Shown here: positions 4,496 through 59,770 of the stretch, piece after piece | Position numbering within the stretch: position 1 is the first letter of the stretch | Layout: every line of letters begins with the position of its first letter | NCBI GenBank assembly: GCA_001599295.1 | Contig: BCGN01000008.1 | Location: 1,054,001 to 1,118,000 of the forward strand | Reading direction: 5' to 3' | From: Sporopachydermia quercuum | Lineage: Eukaryota | Length of the DNA: 64,000 nucleotides | The notes under the pieces: generated by a model | What the model was told of the DNA's origin: nothing | The model's database searches: none | What the model saw: only the letters and a program-made list of their open reading frames with translations | Program-made: the position numbers and the translations under genes

Positions 4496-5432
4496 GAAAG
4501 ATGAAATAAAAAAGAAGCATCGTGTACAGCAACTATTACGAATAATGAGTTCTTCGCTTTTATAAATTTATGAGGATGAAGGATGAAGGATCACGGATAA
4601 AGAATGCTCATAATGGTTTTATATTGAGGACCAACTAAAACGACAGTGAATGCTTTACTGAAGAAAGCGAGTTCTCGTAATACGGTGCTACAGCACACTA
4701 CCACTTTTTAGTGTTGAAAATTGTAGACAATAAGCTAATATAATATATTTATGTTATAATTTAATATCTATATATATATAATTACTAAGAGTTGATATCC
4801 CACTATAGAAATGATCTTGTGATTTTTTCCTTTGAATCTTTGTTCATTCATAATCTAACTATAAAACGTCAAGTGTAATCATCTTGTTCGTCCTAAATAA
4901 TCTTTTTCTTCAGGTTAATAAAACAACTTTAACATCTTACGTAATGCATTCGTTTTCATCTCAGCTATTCATTATTCATATCAACTACTTTGTGTACAAA
5001 TCGCTTCATATCATTTCTAACTTCAGTTGTCGTGTTCCTACTAGTTCCTGAAAATGGTGTATAATTTACTGTAGTGAACAAGTTACCAGTACATATATGA
5101 GAAGGTACTTTATACAATCGGCATAGGAATATTAATAACCTATGAATATACCAAATATTTGTTAAACTCCAAAAAAACCCCTCTAATCTCAAGTTTTACA
5201 TTATTGGTTGGNAATATGGTTGCAATTGGAAATCGAAACTGTGTCTCTCCTACTCCTAGGTTATAAATCAAATAAATAAATACCTATATTGAAATAATAA
5301 ATAATAAATAAATAAGTAAACGTTTCACTTAACTTCACTTAACAAACTGTTCTAATGCACAATAAATCAAAGATTCTTTTAACAAAAGGAATAGAAAGAT
5401 AAATCGTAGAGTTACTATGGAAACATCTAAAT

Positions 5433-7853
5433 TTACCATAATAACATCTTTCTAGGATCTTCGATCAACTCCTTAACAGTTTTCAAGAAAGTAACAGCTT
5501 CTCTACCATCAAGTAATCTATGATCATAAGTTAAAGCGAGATACATCATTGGTCTTGCGACAACCTTACCATCAACAACAACAGCTCTTTCCTTGACACC
5601 ATGCAAACCTAAAACTGCAGTTTGAGGCATGTTGATAATAGGAGTTCCGTATAAAGATCCAAAGACACCACCATTAGAAATAGTGAAAGTACCTCCGCTC
5701 ATATCTTCAAGAGTTAATTTTCCATCTCTAGCCTTGACACCTAATTCAGCAATAGCTTTTTCAATTCCCATGATATCTAAAGCTTCAGCATTACGAACAA
5801 CCGGTGTGACAAGACCCTTTGGTGTAGCAACGGCAACAGAGATGTCGACGTAATCCTTATATACAATGGTGTCACCCTTACCTGGTCCTTCGATGGCAGC
5901 ATTGACTGTAGGAATATCTTTCATAGCTAAGACAGAAGCTCTGGAGAAAGCTCCCATGAAACCGAACTTAGAACCGGTCTTCTTGAGGATTTCATCCTTA
6001 TAGAGTTTTCTCATTTCCATCAAAGCAGACATGTCAACTTCGTTGAAAGTGGTAAGTGATGCAGCGGTGTTTTGAGATTCCTTGAGTCTTTCGGCAATAC
6101 GAAGTCTCATTCTGTTCATTTTCACTCTGCTCTCAGATCTGGATCCAACAACTGGAGCAGCAGATGAAGGAGCGGATGAAGGAGCAGCAGCCTTTGGAGC
6201 AGCAGCCTTTGGAGCAGCAGCCTTTGGAGCAGCAGCCTTTTTAGGGGCCGGGGTAGCCTTTGGAGCAGGAGCATCAGCCTTTGGAGCAGGGGGTGGGGCT
6301 GCAGCTTCAACCTTTGGAGCATCAGCAGCGGCAGCCTTCTTACCACCAGTTCCAGGTTGTAACTTGAATAAGTCTTGGCCAACGGCAACAGTGTCTTCGG
6401 GTTGGGCTAAGACTTCAGTAATGACACCAGCAAAAGGAGCATTAACAGCTACATCAATCTTATCAGTTTCAATGGTGGCAACTTCTTCGTCTTGTTCAAC
6501 GAAGTCACCAACGGATTTATCCCAGGACTTCAGGGTACCTTCAGTGATAGATTCNGCCATTTCTGGAACTTTAACAGTCTCAGCGGGGCCAGTGGTAGTA
6601 GGAGCAGACTCAGCTTCGGCAGGAGCAGCAGGGGCTGCAGCTGGAGCCGATTCAGTCTTTGGTGGAGCCGATTCGCTCTTGGCAGAAGGAGCTCCACCAC
6701 TACCAGGTTCAATCTTGAACAAGTCCTGTCCAACAGTTACAGTATCCTCAGGATTAGCTAAGAATTCAGTAAGAGTTCCTTCGAAAGGAGAGTTGACAGC
6801 AACATCAATCTTATCAGTTTCGATAGTGGCAACTTCTTCGTCTTGAGCGACATGATCGCCAATTTGTTTTTCCCATGATTTTAGGGTACCTTCTGTGATA
6901 GATTCAGCCATTTCTGGGACTTTCACGGTTTCAGCTAAACGAGAGGTTAGTGACTGTAAGATAAAAGGGAAGGATTGGCTTGAGACTGGTAGGTACAATG
7001 CTGATTGTTGAGATCCTAGCTGAAAAGTATTACAACAAATGGCATTGGACAGATCAAAACAGTTTGGATTGTCATGTTGATAGTAACTTCTTCGAGAATG
7101 ATTGGTAAGTTTAAAGAGGTGCATGACCAGTTGATACCCCTTAATCTGTCCGGGGAATTATGCAGACTTTTAAGGAAAAACCACTAATAAACATCAAGCT
7201 GAACATAGCAGTAAACAATGTCTCAATAGTTGGAAATTTGTATATTTGGTATTATTACCAATTACTGATCATCAACACATCAAGCATTATATGCACAATC
7301 ATGCATCACTCTGCATGTGGTTGTACTGAAATAACTGCACGATCATGCACATCTACTCTTACCTCGTCAAAAGTATCTCATTCATTTAAACAGTAGAAGC
7401 TGACGTCTTTAATTTGATTGATTCTGATCGTATCCTTCATCAATTCATGTTTCCTCGGATGTCCTCCTTTCAATTGGAACATACAATCAAACATAATTAC
7501 TTGATCCACTCAAACTCTACATATCCCACTCCAACTAGTACCGAAGTGCAATACATACCATAACCTCTGTAGAAGATCGAAGAAACTTTTAGGACATTGG
7601 TCTTAGGACTAATGATACGTTAGTATGATATATATTCGATAGAGGGTCTCTCTTACGGTAAATCAATCACATCTTTTTCATAAAAAGCAGCTCTTAAAAC
7701 AACATACCGAATAGTAGTCATAGAAGCAGAAACAAAAGTTCGTTTACTAGAGACATTCCTAATTGTAGCTGAAGTGATTGATGAGTTGATACATCTTCTG
7801 GTTCCAACGGCAGATGTCTTCGACAAAAATGTCATTGATCTCTTTCCGAGCAT
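5433..7853 (-). CDS. KGD2: mitochondrial dihydrolipoamide succinyltransferase (E2 of 2-oxoglutarate dehydrogenase), 565 aa; exons 7853-7708, 7608-7559, 6934-5433
   Basis: Presequence [12 protein letters not shown]...; two GTATGT introns with TACTAAC/CACTAAC branch points join in frame ([12 protein letters not shown]). Two ETDK lipoyl domains; catalytic domain with [31 protein letters not shown] and [11 protein letters not shown]. Confidence 0.96.
6181..6240 (-). repeat. perfect 15-bp coding tandem repeat x4 (KAAAP) in the KGD2 Ala/Pro linker
   Basis: GGAGCAGCAGCCTTT occurs four times in tandem on the + strand. Confidence 0.95.
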
Positions 7854-50059: not shown

Positions 50060-53000
50060 TCAATCTTCTGTCAAATCATTATCAAACTGCATCACCGGCT
50101 CCAAAAACGTATTTGATGTAAAGAACTCTCCAGACTTCTGTTTTACCTCATCACTAACATATCGATTCTTACTAAATCGCCGCTCAGGTTGTTTGTTCCT
50201 GTAGTTCATAGTCATATACCGTGATGGAATCATTCCATCATCATCTATAATGGCCGATTCACTTAATCTCAAGCTTGGCGATGGCCATCCATTGGTATTA
50301 TTCATGCTGCTGTTATTATGTGCGTTCAAATCTGGCACGGAGCTGGTTTCCAACGAAAAACTAGGCGAATGCGAATTTGAGCCTGTATTTGAATATTTCG
50401 GAGGTTTTGGCGATGTGCAGTTTGATAGAGACACCGATGCCGATGCTGATGAGTATCGAAACATTTCTTCAGACTGAGCAGGTGAAAATGAAGAAGCAAC
50501 AGGAGCGTTGAGAGGATTGACGGCAACAGCATTTGTGCTGTTAGTATCTCCATGAAAACCAGGAGTATAATAGTTACTATTAGCACGCATACTGCTATTG
50601 TTGGTGTTATTCTTGCTATTAGCTATTCTGTCTGATGCACTATTCTGCTTGCCGTAGCCTCCATAATGTGGAGACCCATTGGCAGTGCTAGTACTGTTTG
50701 ATCGTATAAAATTGTTCCCACTATGTAAAGCGTTTCTATGTCCTTTGCTAAAAGGATTTCTATCGATATTGCTGCTAGGCATCTCTGACTGTGATCTACC
50801 CATGAAAGAAGCATCAATTGAAGGTATCTCTTCAATTGTATAGTTAGAATAGTTTTTACCAGTATTCGCTGGTGATGATTTGATAGAAGAAGGAGTAGAC
50901 ACAAACTGTGGAGAATGGAAATTTGATCCCAATGGTTGAGCTGGAGTTGCACTAGGATAGAACATGTTTTGAATATCTCTTTCGCTTAGAAATTTATACA
51001 TATTCTTGTTGTTACTTGACCCAAACGAAGAATCCAATGTATCGTTGTATGAAGAAGAGTTTAATGGCACCGAAGAAGAAGCATTAAAACCTGGCGGTGT
51101 AAATATACTGGCAGCACTTGTAGAATCTGCATTGCTGTGCATATGAATACTATCAATAGTGGAGTCTCCACTAGGAGAACAAGTGGTACTGTTAGGAGCA
51201 TCACCAGATTTACTTCCTGGAGAGTTTACGGCATTTGATAGTTTCTGCAAGGAGATTTTTCTTCTGGAACGCCTTTTAGCAGTTTGAGAGTGAGTGTTAT
51301 TGTTGCTGTTGCTGTTATTGCTGGTAACAGTACTACTACTACTACTATTACCAGCACTATATCTGTAATTCATATTCTTGGAGCTTCTCTTTCTTCCCAC
51401 GCCATTTTGAAGATAGAACCAATCAGCAACATCGTCAACAGGGATTTTGATGACATCGTCCTTAGAGCTGGCACTATTGCTATTGCTGCTGCTGACACTG
51501 CTATTTGGTGCTATTGATGTTGTTGTGATGGTAGTATTGGCAGAGTTACATTTGGATGCTGTAGTAGTTGTTGTAGTAGTTGACAGCGATATACTAGAGG
51601 CACTTGGTCTGATACTTTCATTGTTGCTATTGTTGCTATTACTACCAGCAGAGCTGTCACCAGCACTCCCATAAGTATTGACCATAGTGCTAACACTAGC
51701 ATTACTACCAACCAAACTGCTATCACCAGTATTAAACCCAATTCCTTTTTCGCCTCCTAAACTGGGCCTATAGCAGAATTCACTTATTGTCTCCGTATCT
51801 AACGCCAAAGTGTTCTGAGCTTTGAATCTATGTCCATTCACCATACTAAAAGGACTAGTGAGCCATTGTAAAGATTTATTGGATTTGATGAGCGTAGGAA
51901 TATCTGGTAGCAGGTCAATCAAAGCTGTTAATCTGCTTGACTCTTCTGCTTCTTTTTTTCGCTGCTTCTTCAATTCGAGTTCCAGTTTCTCTTTATAATC
52001 AAAAAACTGGTCAAAGGAAAATGGTTCATTGGGATTGTCAATTATATACTTGCTTATATCTTTAATGAGATTTGGTATATCATCGTTAATGAATTCCTTG
52101 ATCATTTCTTTTACCTCTTGTTTCAACATGTCAGACACTTTTGGTGCTTCTTTTGCCAAACTACTGGTAACATGTAAAGAGATCAAAGGATCATTGCGAA
52201 AAGTTAAGCTTATACCTGGAGCAGCGTTAGAAGAGCAATGAGAATTATGATGAAAAGAATGAGAATATGCTTGCGAGTTGGATGTGCTGTGTGAATTGGA
52301 ATGTGGTCTCCTGTTTGCCGATTCTGTTGATGTTGAGTTAGAAGTCATTCTACTGTCTTCAGGAATCCCATTTGATGCTGTTGTCAAATTATTCTCATTC
52401 ATACCAGTAAAATAGTCGCTTTGTACATTACCAATGCCACCTTGTAGATTATCTGTCGAGACCTTTTCACTTCCTTCCGCGGAATCAACAAGAGATGTAA
52501 AGGCTGTTTGGATTTTGTCTCTGATCTCCCTATTGCTTTTACTTATATTTTCACCATCGCTATCTATGACACTACTAAGGTTAGCAGCACTAGCAGGCAA
52601 ATGACATGATATAGATACCAATCCATCTAATTGGATTTCAGAGATCTCCAGTTTCAAAGGTAATTTCATGGAGGCATCAGCTAATAGGAAATCAGGTTTG
52701 ACGAATTCCGGGGTTGATATTCTATATAAATCCAAAGGATTTGATTCCAGCATTGTATGTAGGTTGATAATAGCATCTCCCTGATAGGAGAATTTGAATA
52801 AGGCCACAAAAGTCGTTAGTGAGAAAGCAGAAACCTCAACGATTTCCAGGTGCGGTGGTCGATGGCCCAGAGTTATATCTATAATTGAAATAGGAGCACA
52901 CACCGGGTGTTTGGCCGGAGTTGAGTTGATTGCGTTAGACAGTGCTTCACAACATGCTGCAGAAAGGATATAGCCATTAGAGCCATAGGACGTGGTATCA

Positions 53001-53191
53001 ATGTTTATATCTGATGATAAGGGTAATGCATGGTCTATGTCAGAGACCGTGGAAGATTCATAGTCTTTGGAGTGAGTAGAACTTGTGGACCCAGAGCCTG
53101 ATGCAGTTGATGGTCTAGTAGAAAGGTTGCTGATACCAGCAGGATATTTCTTTCTATGCCGAGAAGAAGGCCAAGACCAAAGAAATGACAT
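50060..53191 (-). CDS. MDM34: Mdm34-like ERMES SMP-domain protein with long Ser/Asn-rich regions, 1043 aa
   Basis: MSFxxxW start, LG.RPPHLEIVEV, FKFSYQGDA, ESNPL, GISLTFRNDPLISLHVTSS, DDIPNLI and basic KRRSRRKISL. Confidence 0.75.
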   Translation of the reverse strand: MSFLWSWPSSRHRKKYPAGISNLSTRPSTASGSGSTSSTHSKDYESSTVSDIDHALPLSSDINIDTTSYGSNGYILSAACCEALSNAINSTPAKHPVCAPISIIDITLGHRPPHLEIVEVSAFSLTTFVALFKFSYQGDAIINLHTMLESNPLDLYRISTPEFVKPDFLLADASMKLPLKLEISEIQLDGLVSISCHLPASAANLSSVIDSDGENISKSNREIRDKIQTAFTSLVDSAEGSEKVSTDNLQGGIGNVQSDYFTGMNENNLTTASNGIPEDSRMTSNSTSTESANRRPHSNSHSTSNSQAYSHSFHHNSHCSSNAAPGISLTFRNDPLISLHVTSSLAKEAPKVSDMLKQEVKEMIKEFINDDIPNLIKDISKYIIDNPNEPFSFDQFFDYKEKLELELKKQRKKEAEESSRLTALIDLLPDIPTLIKSNKSLQWLTSPFSMVNGHRFKAQNTLALDTETISEFCYRPSLGGEKGIGFNTGDSSLVGSNASVSTMVNTYGSAGDSSAGSNSNNSNNESIRPSASSISLSTTTTTTTASKCNSANTTITTTSIAPNSSVSSSNSNSASSKDDVIKIPVDDVADWFYLQNGVGRKRSSKNMNYRYSAGNSSSSSTVTSNNSNSNNNTHSQTAKRRSRRKISLQKLSNAVNSPGSKSGDAPNSTTCSPSGDSTIDSIHMHSNADSTSAASIFTPPGFNASSSVPLNSSSYNDTLDSSFGSSNNKNMYKFLSERDIQNMFYPSATPAQPLGSNFHSPQFVSTPSSIKSSPANTGKNYSNYTIEEIPSIDASFMGRSQSEMPSSNIDRNPFSKGHRNALHSGNNFIRSNSTSTANGSPHYGGYGKQNSASDRIANSKNNTNNSSMRANSNYYTPGFHGDTNSTNAVAVNPLNAPVASSFSPAQSEEMFRYSSASASVSLSNCTSPKPPKYSNTGSNSHSPSFSLETSSVPDLNAHNNSSMNNTNGWPSPSLRLSESAIIDDDGMIPSRYMTMNYRNKQPERRFSKNRYVSDEVKQKSGEFFTSNTFLEPVMQFDNDLTED

Positions 53192-56437: not shown

Positions 56438-59400
56438 ATGGACAAGCTAAGGAAGCCACCATTGGCATCTTCATCACCAACTTCACCTTCAACGATTACC
56501 ACAGCAAAGAGTTCAGTTGCCACCTCGAATACTGCTGTTCAAAATTCACCAAGATCTCCAAGGGGTGTAACTGATACGATAACTGGTAAACGAAAGTATT
56601 CCAAAAAGATTGGTACTCAACTATCGTCATTCAAACTCCTGAAACAAAATGGCATTAAGTCGAAGGTTGGCAGCAGTAAAGCTTCCAATAAGGAAGACAT
56701 TGCAAGCCAGTTTTTGGATACTTCTGTTGATGACCATAAACAAGAAGTAAGTCTTAACGCTGTTGACAATGAGGGTTCATCTTCAGATCAGATTTCTGGT
56801 GTCAGCACGTTTGGAAAAGAGTCAGAAGAACCAACAATCTCCTTTAAGGGGGTCCAGAAGTCAAATAAATCATCTTCATTATTTTCAGGTAAACGAGGTT
56901 CAAGATCCAGAGCAAATTCAAGAGCAGATTCTTCCAGTAATGCTAAAAGTGTGAATGCAGCTAGCAGCAAAAGAAATAGTACCTCTAAGAGCGAGACAAT
57001 GGGAATTCCTATAAGAAAACCTCAAACTTACAGCAATGCATCAACAATAGAATCATTTGCTGGTGACGCCAGTTATTCTATCAATAATAGCAATATGAAT
57101 AGAAGTACTGATGGTACTAGAAACCGCAATGCTAATGGAAATATGAATGGAAATTTGATGGCACCTGATAATAAAGAGACAATTGGCCAATTGGCCTTAT
57201 TTTTATACGAAATCCAGCAAGGAAGTTTATTAAATTCTAGTCATTTAAATGAGGTATCCGCCGGTGGCTTGAATGCTAACATCGGGAAGGGATATACTGG
57301 TGTTCCGGGTGGTGCAGCGCTTACAGTTGGTCCTGGCCTTGGTGGTACTGTAAATGAAGGCCCAGGTTCAAGTTCAAGTACCACGGATCCTTTTGATTCT
57401 TCACCATTAAGTTCATATAAACAATTACCTGCTCTTCTCATTCCAAATCATAGAAGCAACATTTTCAATACTCAAGATCCAGGGTCTAGCAAGAAAAAAT
57501 TCACTTTGAAATGTTCACCAGCGACACTTGCTCGTGCTGAGAGAATCAAATACACTATGGATTTATACTACCTGACATTAGAGCATATGATCAAAAATCT
57601 CCCGGCATTGTCGCCAATAACTGTCTCAAGTCCTGGCCGCTGTAATGCTTTGGATGATCTTGATAATGGTCTAAGCAGCAATGATCCAAACTTCACACAT
57701 GACCATGTTGAAAGCTATACATTCAATCCTCTGCAAGTGGTAAGAAACAGGGACCAAGCGTTGAAAGAACATAATAATGTCTTAATGACCAGTTTGAAAA
57801 ACAAATATACAAAACTGATCACACCAGCTTCTACGGCCTTCAGCGAAAGGAAAAACAAGACTAAATTCAGATGGGAAGTCACGACTGCTGATTTATTGGA
57901 GGATTATAAATGGCAGATCCAAAACCCTCAGCTAGTGCTTAATAACAAAGGTGAACAGGTATATAAGTTTTGTGCACTTCCAGTCCCTAATGGTAAGTCT
58001 GAATCAAACAAAGGTGCAAGCACATCAAACACATCTAGGCGACCAGCTTCAGAGTACTCAAGTGATGATAACAAATTAACAAGGTCCAACAATAGTGGAG
58101 CGAATGGAAAAGGGTTGGCCTTGATTAATTCAGACTTGATAACGTCTTCTAGAGATTCATCTCCTGATGATACAAGTAATGGTAATGGAATTGGTGTCTA
58201 CAGAGGGAAAAGCATCTCGGAAAGCAGCTTTAACAGTAGCAGGAATCAATCGGGAGTGTATTTAAATCGAGATGATAAATCCGGTTTCATTAGAGAAATC
58301 AATGGTAATGGAATCAACAATGGGAATGGATCTTTGGATCCTAATGTCCCTTTATTCAGTCCTATCTCTGATGATGACAGGCTTACATTCACAGCATCAA
58401 ACCACCACCATGCTGTCCCTAATGATTACGAAACCCCTTCTGTCTTGAGAGTAATACAATCTAAAACACCGGCACAGTCTAACAACTTAGAGTCATCACG
58501 AACACCATCTCCTCATGATAATGATGATTTCATGAAAACTCCAAGTAATACTAATTCTCTGTTCCCTATTGACAATAATAATAATAGCTATGAAGAGCTT
58601 TTGGCAGTTAATGGTTTGCAGAATCTTAATAGTAATGTCACNGCAGGAACCGATAGTGTCAATACAGGCAAGTCATCTATTAGCTATGAAAGAAATGATC
58701 AGTTGCCAGTCTTCATAAAAGCTGGTCCTGGTGCCAATGGTTCTAGTGATGTTAATTCCTCTCTTAGCACTGGCGCTGGAAGTAGCATTGGCGCTAGAAG
58801 TACAGTTAATAGTAATAGCGATAGCTTTACCAATATTGTTGATGCGAATGTGCCAATTGTAGTAGTCACCCCCTCTGACCCTGTCTCTGAATCTATTGCA
58901 TCTGGACCCAGTGAGCAACAGTTGAAGTATCAGCAGTTATTGAAAGAAAGGACATCACAAATAAACAAAGTGAAAAGAGCATTGTCCATAACAGCACTTG
59001 GACATTTATATTTACGGAGAAAACCTATTGAAGCGGAGGCGTTAATGAACTTCAGCCAATGCGAAAGACTCATTGCTGATTTGCAGATGAAAAGTATGAA
59101 ATTCAATGATCTGGTGGAGAAGAAAATCAAACATGAGCTTGTTGAAGATAAAGTAATGAGAGTAAGCGAACTCCGCAATGAAATCACTGATAAATATGCG
59201 ATTCCTGTTGATCAAATGCTTCGAAAGACCGATTTCATGGTTAATGAAGTAAATACAACTTTGCGACTTCATGCCAGAAAACTTAAAGAGAGATTTGATA
59301 GACTGACCTCAAACGATTTACGGTTAAGGCTACGAGCAAGTAGAAATCATATATACAGAGGAATAGCTAGAGCTGAGGACAATCATAGAGGTGCATTTGA

Positions 59401-59770
59401 AGATACTGGTCCTAGTGGTCCTAGGGAGAATGCTGTAATTTATAATGCGATTGAAAACTTATCGGTGGATTTCCCAGCACCACCTGCGGCTACGTTCGAT
59501 GTGTTTTCGAGTATTATGTGGAAAAAATGGGGATATTGGATGGTTGAGAACATAATTGGATTATGTCTTTATATGATTCAGTTCTTCTATTTGATTCTGA
59601 GAGTTGCTATTAGAGTGCTATTGGCTGTGTATGGATTGAAAGATCAGAAATGGTTTTATATATTAGTGCTGGGAATAGTGTTCTTCACACTCCTAGTGCA
59701 AAAAGAAGAGATACCTATATTTTCACTTTTCAGGAGTTATAATAGCTTCTTGAAAATGGGTTCTAAATAG
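56438..59770 (+). CDS. MTC4: Mtc4-like protein (low-complexity, C-terminal TM helices), 1110 aa
   Basis: RAERIK..MDLYY, FNPLQVVRNR, W.V...DL..D..W, EVNTTLRL and GYWMVENII resemble the Mtc4 family as I recall it. Confidence 0.65.
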   Translation: MDKLRKPPLASSSPTSPSTITTAKSSVATSNTAVQNSPRSPRGVTDTITGKRKYSKKIGTQLSSFKLLKQNGIKSKVGSSKASNKEDIASQFLDTSVDDHKQEVSLNAVDNEGSSSDQISGVSTFGKESEEPTISFKGVQKSNKSSSLFSGKRGSRSRANSRADSSSNAKSVNAASSKRNSTSKSETMGIPIRKPQTYSNASTIESFAGDASYSINNSNMNRSTDGTRNRNANGNMNGNLMAPDNKETIGQLALFLYEIQQGSLLNSSHLNEVSAGGLNANIGKGYTGVPGGAALTVGPGLGGTVNEGPGSSSSTTDPFDSSPLSSYKQLPALLIPNHRSNIFNTQDPGSSKKKFTLKCSPATLARAERIKYTMDLYYLTLEHMIKNLPALSPITVSSPGRCNALDDLDNGLSSNDPNFTHDHVESYTFNPLQVVRNRDQALKEHNNVLMTSLKNKYTKLITPASTAFSERKNKTKFRWEVTTADLLEDYKWQIQNPQLVLNNKGEQVYKFCALPVPNGKSESNKGASTSNTSRRPASEYSSDDNKLTRSNNSGANGKGLALINSDLITSSRDSSPDDTSNGNGIGVYRGKSISESSFNSSRNQSGVYLNRDDKSGFIREINGNGINNGNGSLDPNVPLFSPISDDDRLTFTASNHHHAVPNDYETPSVLRVIQSKTPAQSNNLESSRTPSPHDNDDFMKTPSNTNSLFPIDNNNNSYEELLAVNGLQNLNSNVXAGTDSVNTGKSSISYERNDQLPVFIKAGPGANGSSDVNSSLSTGAGSSIGARSTVNSNSDSFTNIVDANVPIVVVTPSDPVSESIASGPSEQQLKYQQLLKERTSQINKVKRALSITALGHLYLRRKPIEAEALMNFSQCERLIADLQMKSMKFNDLVEKKIKHELVEDKVMRVSELRNEITDKYAIPVDQMLRKTDFMVNEVNTTLRLHARKLKERFDRLTSNDLRLRLRASRNHIYRGIARAEDNHRGAFEDTGPSGPRENAVIYNAIENLSVDFPAPPAATFDVFSSIMWKKWGYWMVENIIGLCLYMIQFFYLILRVAIRVLLAVYGLKDQKWFYILVLGIVFFTLLVQKEEIPIFSLFRSYNSFLKMGSK

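What the first reader, a model, noticed from the sequence alone, without database searches (positions are those of the whole stretch)
6351..6934. KGD2 carries two tandem lipoyl domains, with the duplicated unit starting exactly at an exon boundary
Seen: two 78-aa domains (about 6934-6703 and 6584-6351), 64/78 identical by hand alignment. Both keep the ETDK lipoyl-lysine, differ at many synonymous sites, and are separated by an Ala/Pro linker. Established: fungal and animal OGDH E2 normally has one lipoyl domain, while multiple domains typify PDH E2 and some bacterial SucB/DlaT. Inference: a lineage-specific internal duplication retained under selection could double the swinging arms per core or change E1/E3(Kgd4) docking. 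The repeat unit begins at AETVKV, which is precisely where intron 2 ends.
Basis: partly seen in the sequence, partly recalled or inferred. Interest (0 to 1): 0.72.

Follow-up and report, generated by a model that had tools for sequence, protein, structure and literature searches.

The report
Yeast Kgd2 with two lipoyl arms
This yeast's Krebs-cycle enzyme subunit Kgd2 carries two intact copies of the lipoate-bearing 'swinging arm' instead of the usual one, a rare design that has arisen several times in fungi and could be used to test what extra arms are for.

Summary
Real. The gene is this yeast's single KGD2 (2-oxoglutarate dehydrogenase E2; 565 aa, three exons). It encodes two lipoyl domains: 64/78 residues identical, dS about 1.3, dN/dS about 0.1, both with ETDK, each predicted to fold separately. 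One read-derived contig spans both. The trait is rare: 1 of the 120 nearest relatives by catalytic domain has two. It is not unique: Saccharomycodes, Hanseniaspora, Chytriomyces-group chytrids, unnamed basidiomycete-like and yeast-like proteins and some protists also have two. A single clade of all two-domain fungal proteins is rejected (AU p=3e-23), and the tree needs at least four gains or losses. The exon-boundary match is not a mechanistic signature. One-domain Geotrichum candidum has the same intron, and Hanseniaspora-like genes with no intron there repeat from the same point. The intron sits at the presequence/domain junction, which is where conservation begins. KGD4 is intact. Most likely both arms are lipoylated and redundant; a split into anchor and shuttle is the bolder rival. 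Eight literature searches found no description of two-lipoyl fungal Kgd2. The scan's earlier notes held only E. coli aceF repeats.

The parts
7708..7853 (-). KGD2 exon 1 (ATG at 7853), first part of the mitochondrial presequence
   Evidence: Spliced frame open for 565 aa; the first 65 aa have 12 R/K, 0 D/E and 21 S/T
7609..7707 (-). Intron 1 (99 nt, GTATGT...TACTAAC...TAG)
   Evidence: inferred from signals, no RNA data
7559..7608 (-). Exon 2 (50 nt), end of the presequence, ...RGY plus the first base of the Ala codon
   Evidence: reading R-x-Y-A as the processing site is recalled, not tested
6935..7558 (-). Intron 2 (624 nt, phase 1) at the presequence/lipoyl-domain junction; ancestral
   Evidence: same site and phase in one-domain Geotrichum locus L014
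6702..6934 (-). Outer lipoyl domain (78 aa); lipoyl-lysine codon 6812-6810
   Evidence: PF00364 over cut-off; AlphaFold2 block pLDDT 85-95
6585..6701 (-). Linker 1 (39 aa, Ala/Pro/Ser/Glu-rich, no Arg)
   Evidence: pLDDT mostly under 50
6351..6584 (-). Inner lipoyl domain (78 aa); lipoyl-lysine codon 6461-6459
   Evidence: PF00364 over cut-off; block pLDDT 89-96 over the core
6138..6350 (-). Linker 2 (about 71 aa, Ala/Pro/Lys-rich, with a 15-nt tandem repeat near 6180-6250); no peripheral subunit-binding domain
   Evidence: no E3-binding family among the 4 Pfam hits
5433..6137 (-). Succinyltransferase catalytic domain with DHRLLDG (His codon 5522-5520) and stop codon
   Evidence: PF00198; TIGR01347 599 bits against cut-off 378.65; 81-82% identical to C. 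thermophilum E2o core 7q5q/8oiu

Best explanation
[quoted passage not shown] SHOWN: two full domains, both under purifying selection, with identical E1-recognition loop ([12 protein letters not shown]) and lysine hairpin (ETDKIDV). Also shown: one KGD2, one KGD1, an intact KGD4, and the same architecture in several separate fungal groups. INFERRED: after import and cleavage at RGY|A both lysines are lipoylated. Each arm can be succinylated by E1o, deliver succinyl to the 24-mer core and be re-oxidised by E3, so the core carries up to 48 largely interchangeable arms instead of 24, the outer one with longer reach, as in multi-lipoyl pyruvate dehydrogenase E2s. The repeat seems to start at the exon boundary because an ancestral intron separates presequence from mature protein, and the folded domain, the only part still alignable at near-saturated dS, starts there.
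For: 64/78 identity, dN 0.12, dS 1.27. Two separately folded beta domains joined by low-confidence linkers. 62 of 62 lipoyl domains in 31 two-domain fungal-type E2o sequences keep TDK (the set includes near-duplicates). Single KGD2, one strong KGD1 match, KGD4 over cut-off. AU rejects one clade of all 11 two-domain rows among 43 (p=3e-23); starred branches force at least 4 changes. Same intron in one-domain Geotrichum, no intron in 3 of 3 two-domain Hanseniaspora-like loci. No CTAAC/CTGAC branch site or GTRHGT donor in 6934-6300. [quoted passage not shown] Passages of PMC6270654 name the surface loop and lysine turn as E1 determinants.
Against: No RNA, proteomic or enzymatic data, so lipoylation and use of both arms are inferred. 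Strict redundancy does not by itself explain long retention. In Hanseniaspora and the chytrids outer and inner domains form position-specific groups, which fits some specialisation. The number of origins among yeasts is unsettled: one clade of all yeast two-domain rows is not rejected (p=0.255; p=0.23 for a subset). The window's two domains are sisters at only SH-aLRT 86 and are unresolved in a larger tree.
Confidence: 0.65

Rival explanations
1. Division of labour: eukaryotic E2o has no peripheral subunit-binding domain, so one lipoyl domain (with the extra linker) mainly tethers E1o or E3 to the core while the other shuttles intermediates. That would make the duplication repeatedly advantageous.
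For: Passages of PMC10203282 propose an 'unloaded' lipoyl domain acting as an anchor in the fungal complex. One section of PMC11436768 reports weak binding of both lipoyl domain and linker to E1o and E3. Position-specific grouping of outer and inner domains in Hanseniaspora (outer to inner 67-71% identical, outer to outer 79-92%) and in chytrids.
Against: In the window both domains have the same recognition loop, the same hairpin and nearly the same net charge (-12, -11). All lysines are kept in all lineages. KGD4 is intact. PMC11436768 calls lipoyl-domain binding very weak.
Confidence: 0.2
2. Intron-guided origin (exon shuffling): a breakpoint in or at the end of intron 2 defined the duplicated unit.
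For: Similarity starts at the acceptor codon. A breakpoint far inside intron 2 would have brought untranslatable intron sequence, so a breakpoint near the acceptor is plausible (inference).
Against: No intron remnant ahead of copy 2 (11 of 45 nt match the intron end, 14 of 45 the spliced upstream). The repeat ends inside an exon. The intron is shared with one-domain genes, and lineages with no intron there repeat from the same place. At dS 1.3 the true breakpoints are erased.
Confidence: 0.1
3. One ancient duplication in budding yeasts, homogenised by gene conversion within species and lost in most lineages, rather than several gains.
For: AU does not reject one clade of yeast two-domain proteins (p=0.255). 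The window and P0001 are sisters at SH-aLRT 94 in one tree. Saccharomycodes domains are 88% alike while Hanseniaspora's are 67-71%, which suggests that conversion does occur.
Against: 110 of the 120 nearest relatives have one domain. The best trees put the window among one-domain Geotrichum/Blastobotrys-like rows and Saccharomycodaceae among other one-domain yeasts, so many losses would be needed. It cannot cover basidiomycete-like and chytrid cases (p=1.7e-5 and 0.043).
Confidence: 0.12
4. Assembly artefact (two alleles joined) or a copy that is spliced out.
For: No RNA or long-read data seen; the runs laid may be the source of the assembly.
Against: The copies are 22% different in DNA, mostly at synonymous sites, which is too much for alleles. 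One contig spans both with no variants. No internal branch site. The same architecture recurs in many other organisms.
Confidence: 0.03

Closest known systems
Fungal Kgd2 / E2o (Geotrichum candidum P0006; C. thermophilum core, PDB 7q5q and 8oiu)
   Same: Presequence, lipoyl domain, Ala/Pro linker without PSBD, succinyltransferase domain 90% identical to Geotrichum and 81-82% to C. thermophilum; same intron as Geotrichum
   Different: Two lipoyl domains instead of one
Two-lipoyl Kgd2 in database records: Saccharomycodes ludwigii XP_045935917.1, Hanseniaspora guilliermondii and H. valbyensis, Chytriomyces confervae TPX77350.1 and related chytrids
   Same: Same architecture, both lysines kept, outer linker 31-43 aa
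   Different: Other branches of the tree, probably separate duplications; Hanseniaspora-like genes lack the intron. No paper describing them was found.
Multi-lipoyl pyruvate dehydrogenase E2 (E. coli AceF, three; mammalian DLAT, two)
   Same: Tandem lipoyl-plus-linker modules; redundancy described for E. coli (passages of PMC8421416; PMC7448341)
   Different: Acetyltransferases with a PSBD; the window is far below their cut-offs, and this genome's own LAT1-like E2 has one lipoyl domain
Actinobacterial/acidobacterial SucB-DlaT-type E2 (TIGR02927)
   Same: Two or three lipoyl domains ahead of an E2 core
   Different: Carry an E3-binding domain (PF02817); the window scores 363 bits against a cut-off of 423; no sign of transfer, since the window's domains group with fungal ones

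Membership tests
Kgd2 / eukaryotic E2o | Succinyltransferase-type catalytic domain | tested here: met
   TIGR01347 599 bits, cut-off 378.65; PRK05704 531, cut-off 449; best solved cores are E2o
Kgd2 / eukaryotic E2o | N-terminal lipoyl domain with the acceptor lysine in a beta-turn | tested here: met
   Two PF00364 matches over cut-off; ETDK in both; folds
Kgd2 / eukaryotic E2o | No peripheral subunit-binding domain (PMC9974300, passages) | tested here: met
   No such family among 4 Pfam hits; linker 2 is low-confidence coil
Kgd2 / eukaryotic E2o | Cleavable mitochondrial presequence | tested here: inconclusive
   65 aa with 12 R/K and no D/E, ending RGY|A; composition only, no predictor or experiment
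Kgd2 / eukaryotic E2o | Partners encoded in the genome (E1o Kgd1, adaptor Kgd4) | tested here: met
   TIGR00239 1326 bits at one locus; PF10937 over cut-off. E3 was not searched.
Kgd2 / eukaryotic E2o | Lipoylation, succinyl transfer and 24-mer assembly | not testable with these tools
   Needs MS, enzyme assay or cryo-EM
Canonical one-lipoyl Kgd2 architecture | A single lipoyl domain (typical, not defining of the enzyme) | tested here: not met
   Two domains here; 110 of 120 nearest relatives have one, 1 has two, 9 have none in the record
Pyruvate dehydrogenase E2 (Lat1/AceF) | Acetyltransferase family score | tested here: not met
   TIGR01349 227 against 445; TIGR01348 227 against 552; a separate LAT1-like gene lies on C6
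SucB_Actino / DlaT (TIGR02927) | Family score and E3-binding domain | tested here: not met
   363 against 423.45; no E3-binding hit

The most novel reading that the evidence does not exclude
Eukaryotic E2o, which lost its subunit-binding domain, has convergently gained a second lipoyl arm at least four times in fungi and again in protists, because a spare arm can hold E1o or E3 at the core while the other cycles. These species would be natural experiments on the proposed anchor role of lipoyl domains.
Probability: 0.17. Interest if true: 0.62.

Novelty: new variant of a known kind. Interest (0 to 1): 0.36.

Why it matters
Eukaryotic 2-oxoglutarate dehydrogenase E2 is described with one lipoyl domain (24 per core; passage of PMC7448341). 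A set of naturally two-armed versions from separate fungal groups allows two tests. One is why lipoyl-domain number varies. The other is the proposal that unloaded lipoyl domains anchor E1o and E3 in a complex without a binding domain. Swapping such a gene into S. cerevisiae kgd2-null cells is simple. The chemistry is not new, and multi-lipoyl E2s are textbook in other complexes, so the surprise is moderate.

Tried and rejected
Single-sequence AlphaFold2 of the two-domain region failed (mean pLDDT 41) and was not used; the model with a 54-row alignment worked. No RNA holder was listed, which is no evidence on expression. The three runs left 5300-6118 uncovered; the tool says a filter drops some records, so nothing is concluded. 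The scan of prokaryote genomes gave 32 loci, mostly SAR116 SucB; lipoyl domains were not counted in them and they were not used. A count of lipoyl domains in Rhodobacteraceae SucB was not obtained, so no claim is made on proteobacterial two-lipoyl SucB. The idea that the second arm makes up for loss of KGD4 was rejected for this genome and not tested in the other lineages. The careful 85-row tree did not finish and the quick tree was used. The 66-row domain tree hit its time limit and is read from the file as written, after dropping 3 rows with mispredicted N-termini. P0003 and P0005 ranked high because part of the catalytic domain is repeated; each has one lipoyl domain. My first hand-set exon 2 boundary was off by one base and was corrected. 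The scan's earlier notes by sequence gave two unrelated red-algal entries. Supplementary files were not read; the E2o alignments in the supplement of PMC9974300 could contain two-domain sequences.

Full report
Observation. The minus strand holds a three-exon gene: 7853-7708, 7608-7559 and 6934-5433, with introns of 99 and 624 nt (GTATGT...CTAAC...TAG). Spliced, it reads 565 codons without a stop. Splicing is inferred from signals; no RNA run was listed. Exon 3 contains a direct repeat of 242 nt at a spacing of 351 nt, 78% identical. The two 78-residue units share 64 residues; 36 codons are identical, 27 differ synonymously, 14 non-synonymously and 1 holds an N that cannot change the Ala. Both are Biotin_lipoyl domains over the Pfam cut-off. 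Intron 2 ends inside the first codon of domain 1 (Ala, G|CT).

Not an artefact. In each of 3 of 3 runs laid, one 65-kb contig covers 6211-8000, both domains included, with no other letters, gaps or joints. These are contigs from at most two samples, both flagged as possible sources of the assembly, so they are not independent strains. Alleles are not expected to differ at 22% of bases (inference). No CTAAC/CTGAC branch site or GTRHGT donor occurs in 6934-6300; one GTAAG lies at 6343, after domain 2. Skipping of a domain is therefore unlikely.

Identity. The protein passes the succinyltransferase cut-offs (TIGR01347 599/378.65; PRK05704 531/449) and fails those of pyruvate dehydrogenase E2 and actinobacterial SucB. 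An AlphaFold2 model built with a 54-row alignment shows two confident beta domains, two low-confidence linkers and a confident catalytic domain. Its best solved matches are E2o cores, 81-82% identical to C. thermophilum 7q5q and 8oiu. The genome has one KGD2, one strong KGD1 match and an intact KGD4 with one apparent intron. Two other E2-like genes, which I read from their sequences as LAT1 and PDX1 (names recalled), have one lipoyl domain each. In the trees the protein lies among Geotrichum- and Blastobotrys-like yeasts.

Selection and age. Nei-Gojobori counts over 77 codons give dN 0.12, dS 1.27 and a ratio of 0.096; the bootstrap 97.5th percentile is 0.20. dS is near saturation, so the duplication is old and the estimate is rough. 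The copies are as far from each other (82%) as from the best one-domain orthologues (82-83%). The loop [12 protein letters not shown] and the hairpin ETDKIDV are identical in both; passages of PMC6270654 name these regions as main, but not sole, determinants of E1 recognition.

How common. Ranked by the whole protein, which favours two-domain hits, 13 of the 120 best homologues have two lipoyl domains. Ranked by the catalytic domain alone, 1 of 120 has two (P0001), 110 have one and 9 have none in the record. Of the 110, 75 show at least 24 residues ahead of the domain; the rest could be truncated models. Named two-domain records are Saccharomycodes ludwigii, Hanseniaspora guilliermondii, H. 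valbyensis, Chytriomyces, Podochytrium, Siphonaria, Physocladia, Obelidium and Entophlyctis. Unnamed ones include yeast-like P0001 and P0002, basidiomycete-like P0015, P0018 and P0019, and non-fungal-looking P0170, P0200, P0219 and P0234; P0184 is labelled Polykrikos kofoidii. All 12 eukaryote-type two-domain proteins scanned have TIGR01347 as best family, over cut-off. All 62 domains of 31 two-domain fungal-type sequences, near-duplicates included, keep TDK.

How many origins. On an 85-row catalytic-domain tree (quick search; 85 of 244 sequences then held, chosen by me) the two-domain label needs 8 changes, at least 4 forced by starred branches. On a 43-row tree of inner lipoyl plus catalytic domain it needs 5, again at least 4 forced, and the window pairs with P0001 at SH-aLRT 94. 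AU tests reject one clade of all 11 two-domain rows (p=3e-23), window+P0001 with basidiomycete-like rows (1.7e-5), and chytrid with basidiomycete-like rows (0.010); window+P0001 with chytrids is borderline (0.043). Against a firm count: one clade of the yeast two-domain rows is not rejected (0.255), nor window with Saccharomycodaceae (0.159) or with P0002 (0.475). In domain trees the outer and inner copies group within their lineage: Saccharomycodaceae 99.9/100, chytrids 100/100, P0015/P0019 99/100, P0018 96/92, P0001 92/73 (run stopped at its time limit). The window's pair is unresolved there and sisters at 86 in a 28-row tree, where pairing with P0001's domains is not rejected (0.125, 0.24). 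So repeated gains across fungi are well supported, while the number among yeasts (one to four) is open, and the window may share its duplication with P0001.

The exon boundary. Of 80 metagenome loci, 3 have two lipoyl domains (L019, L020, L023; Hanseniaspora-like). I inspected the DNA ahead of the domain in 33 of the 80, by eye. The three two-domain loci read open from the start Met through the presequence, so they have no intron there, yet their proteins repeat from the same point. One-domain locus L014, whose catalytic domain is 100% identical to Geotrichum candidum P0006, has an acceptor at exactly the window's site and phase. Six further one-domain loci (L016, L048, L058, L059, L061, L069; three of them near-identical) have a phase-1 acceptor in the corresponding Ala codon, one codon further from VKVP. 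The other loci inspected show no intron at this site or look like transcripts. The intron is thus older than the duplication and marks the presequence/mature junction. Nothing ahead of copy 2 resembles the intron end or exon 2 (11 and 14 of 45 nt). The visible edge of the repeat is the edge of constraint, not the original breakpoint (inference).

How it most likely works. After import and processing at RGY|A (rule recalled), both lysines are lipoylated, and either arm carries succinyl from E1o to the core and is re-oxidised by E3. A 24-mer would carry up to 48 arms. Passages of PMC8421416 describe E. coli's three domains as able to act redundantly, randomly and independently. The main rival is specialisation. 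Eukaryotic E2o lacks a PSBD (passages of PMC9974300); passages of PMC10203282 suggest that an unloaded lipoyl domain anchors E1o and E3; one results section of PMC11436768 finds weak binding of domain and linker to both. Position-specific divergence in Hanseniaspora and chytrids fits specialisation. The near-equivalence of the window's two copies fits redundancy better.

Literature and novelty. Eight searches returned no paper whose listing or read passages describe a two-lipoyl fungal Kgd2. The library lacks most subscription papers, including the older lipoyl-domain literature. Seen: passages of PMC9974300, PMC7448341, PMC6270654, PMC10203282, PMC9681731 and PMC8421416; abstract and one section of PMC11436768; listings only for the rest; no supplements. 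The architecture is already present in public protein records. The scan's earlier notes held only E. coli aceF lipoyl repeats, which I did not check.

Verdict. A real, selected, uncommon domain duplication in a housekeeping enzyme: a new variant of a known kind. The recurrence across fungi is the interesting part; the exon-boundary claim falls. Interest 0.36.

Noticed in passing
window 6180-6251: A 15-nt tandem repeat (about four Ala-Pro-Lys-Ala-Ala units) in linker 2; the Logan contigs break there, so copy number may be uncertain or variable.
   Followed up: no
P0004 versus P0007, P0011, P0012, P0024: Saccharomycodes outer and inner domains are 88% alike and pair with each other, whereas Hanseniaspora's are 67-71% alike and group by position: gene conversion in Saccharomycodes or a second duplication.
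   Followed up: partly
P0184, P0200, P0170, P0219, P0234: Non-fungal-looking eukaryotic E2o proteins with two lipoyl domains, one labelled Polykrikos kofoidii and one from MMETSP.
   Followed up: partly
P0003, P0005: Rhizoctonia solani and Scedosporium apiospermum records repeat part of the catalytic domain; these look like assembly or gene-model errors.
   Followed up: partly
window 6875-6873 and 6524-6522: Both domains have Trp at position 21, as in Lipomyces, Neurospora and basidiomycete rows, where the nearest yeasts have Phe; a shared mark of the window's two copies.
   Followed up: no
L097, L127, L128: Short contigs in bacterial genome records match the fungal-type protein at 70-75% identity; possibly eukaryotic contamination.
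   Followed up: no
inner linker lengths: Two-domain proteins have a shorter inner linker (median 62 aa, n=31 with near-duplicates) than one-domain ones (median 76, n=131); the window's is 73 by the same measure.
   Followed up: partly
window 50060-53191 (-) and 56438-59770 (+): Two long ORFs (1043 and 1110 aa) rich in Ser/Asn low-complexity sequence; not annotated here.
   Followed up: no
whole window: 18 isolated N bases, one in the tenth codon of the inner lipoyl domain (6555), harmless for translation.
   Followed up: yes
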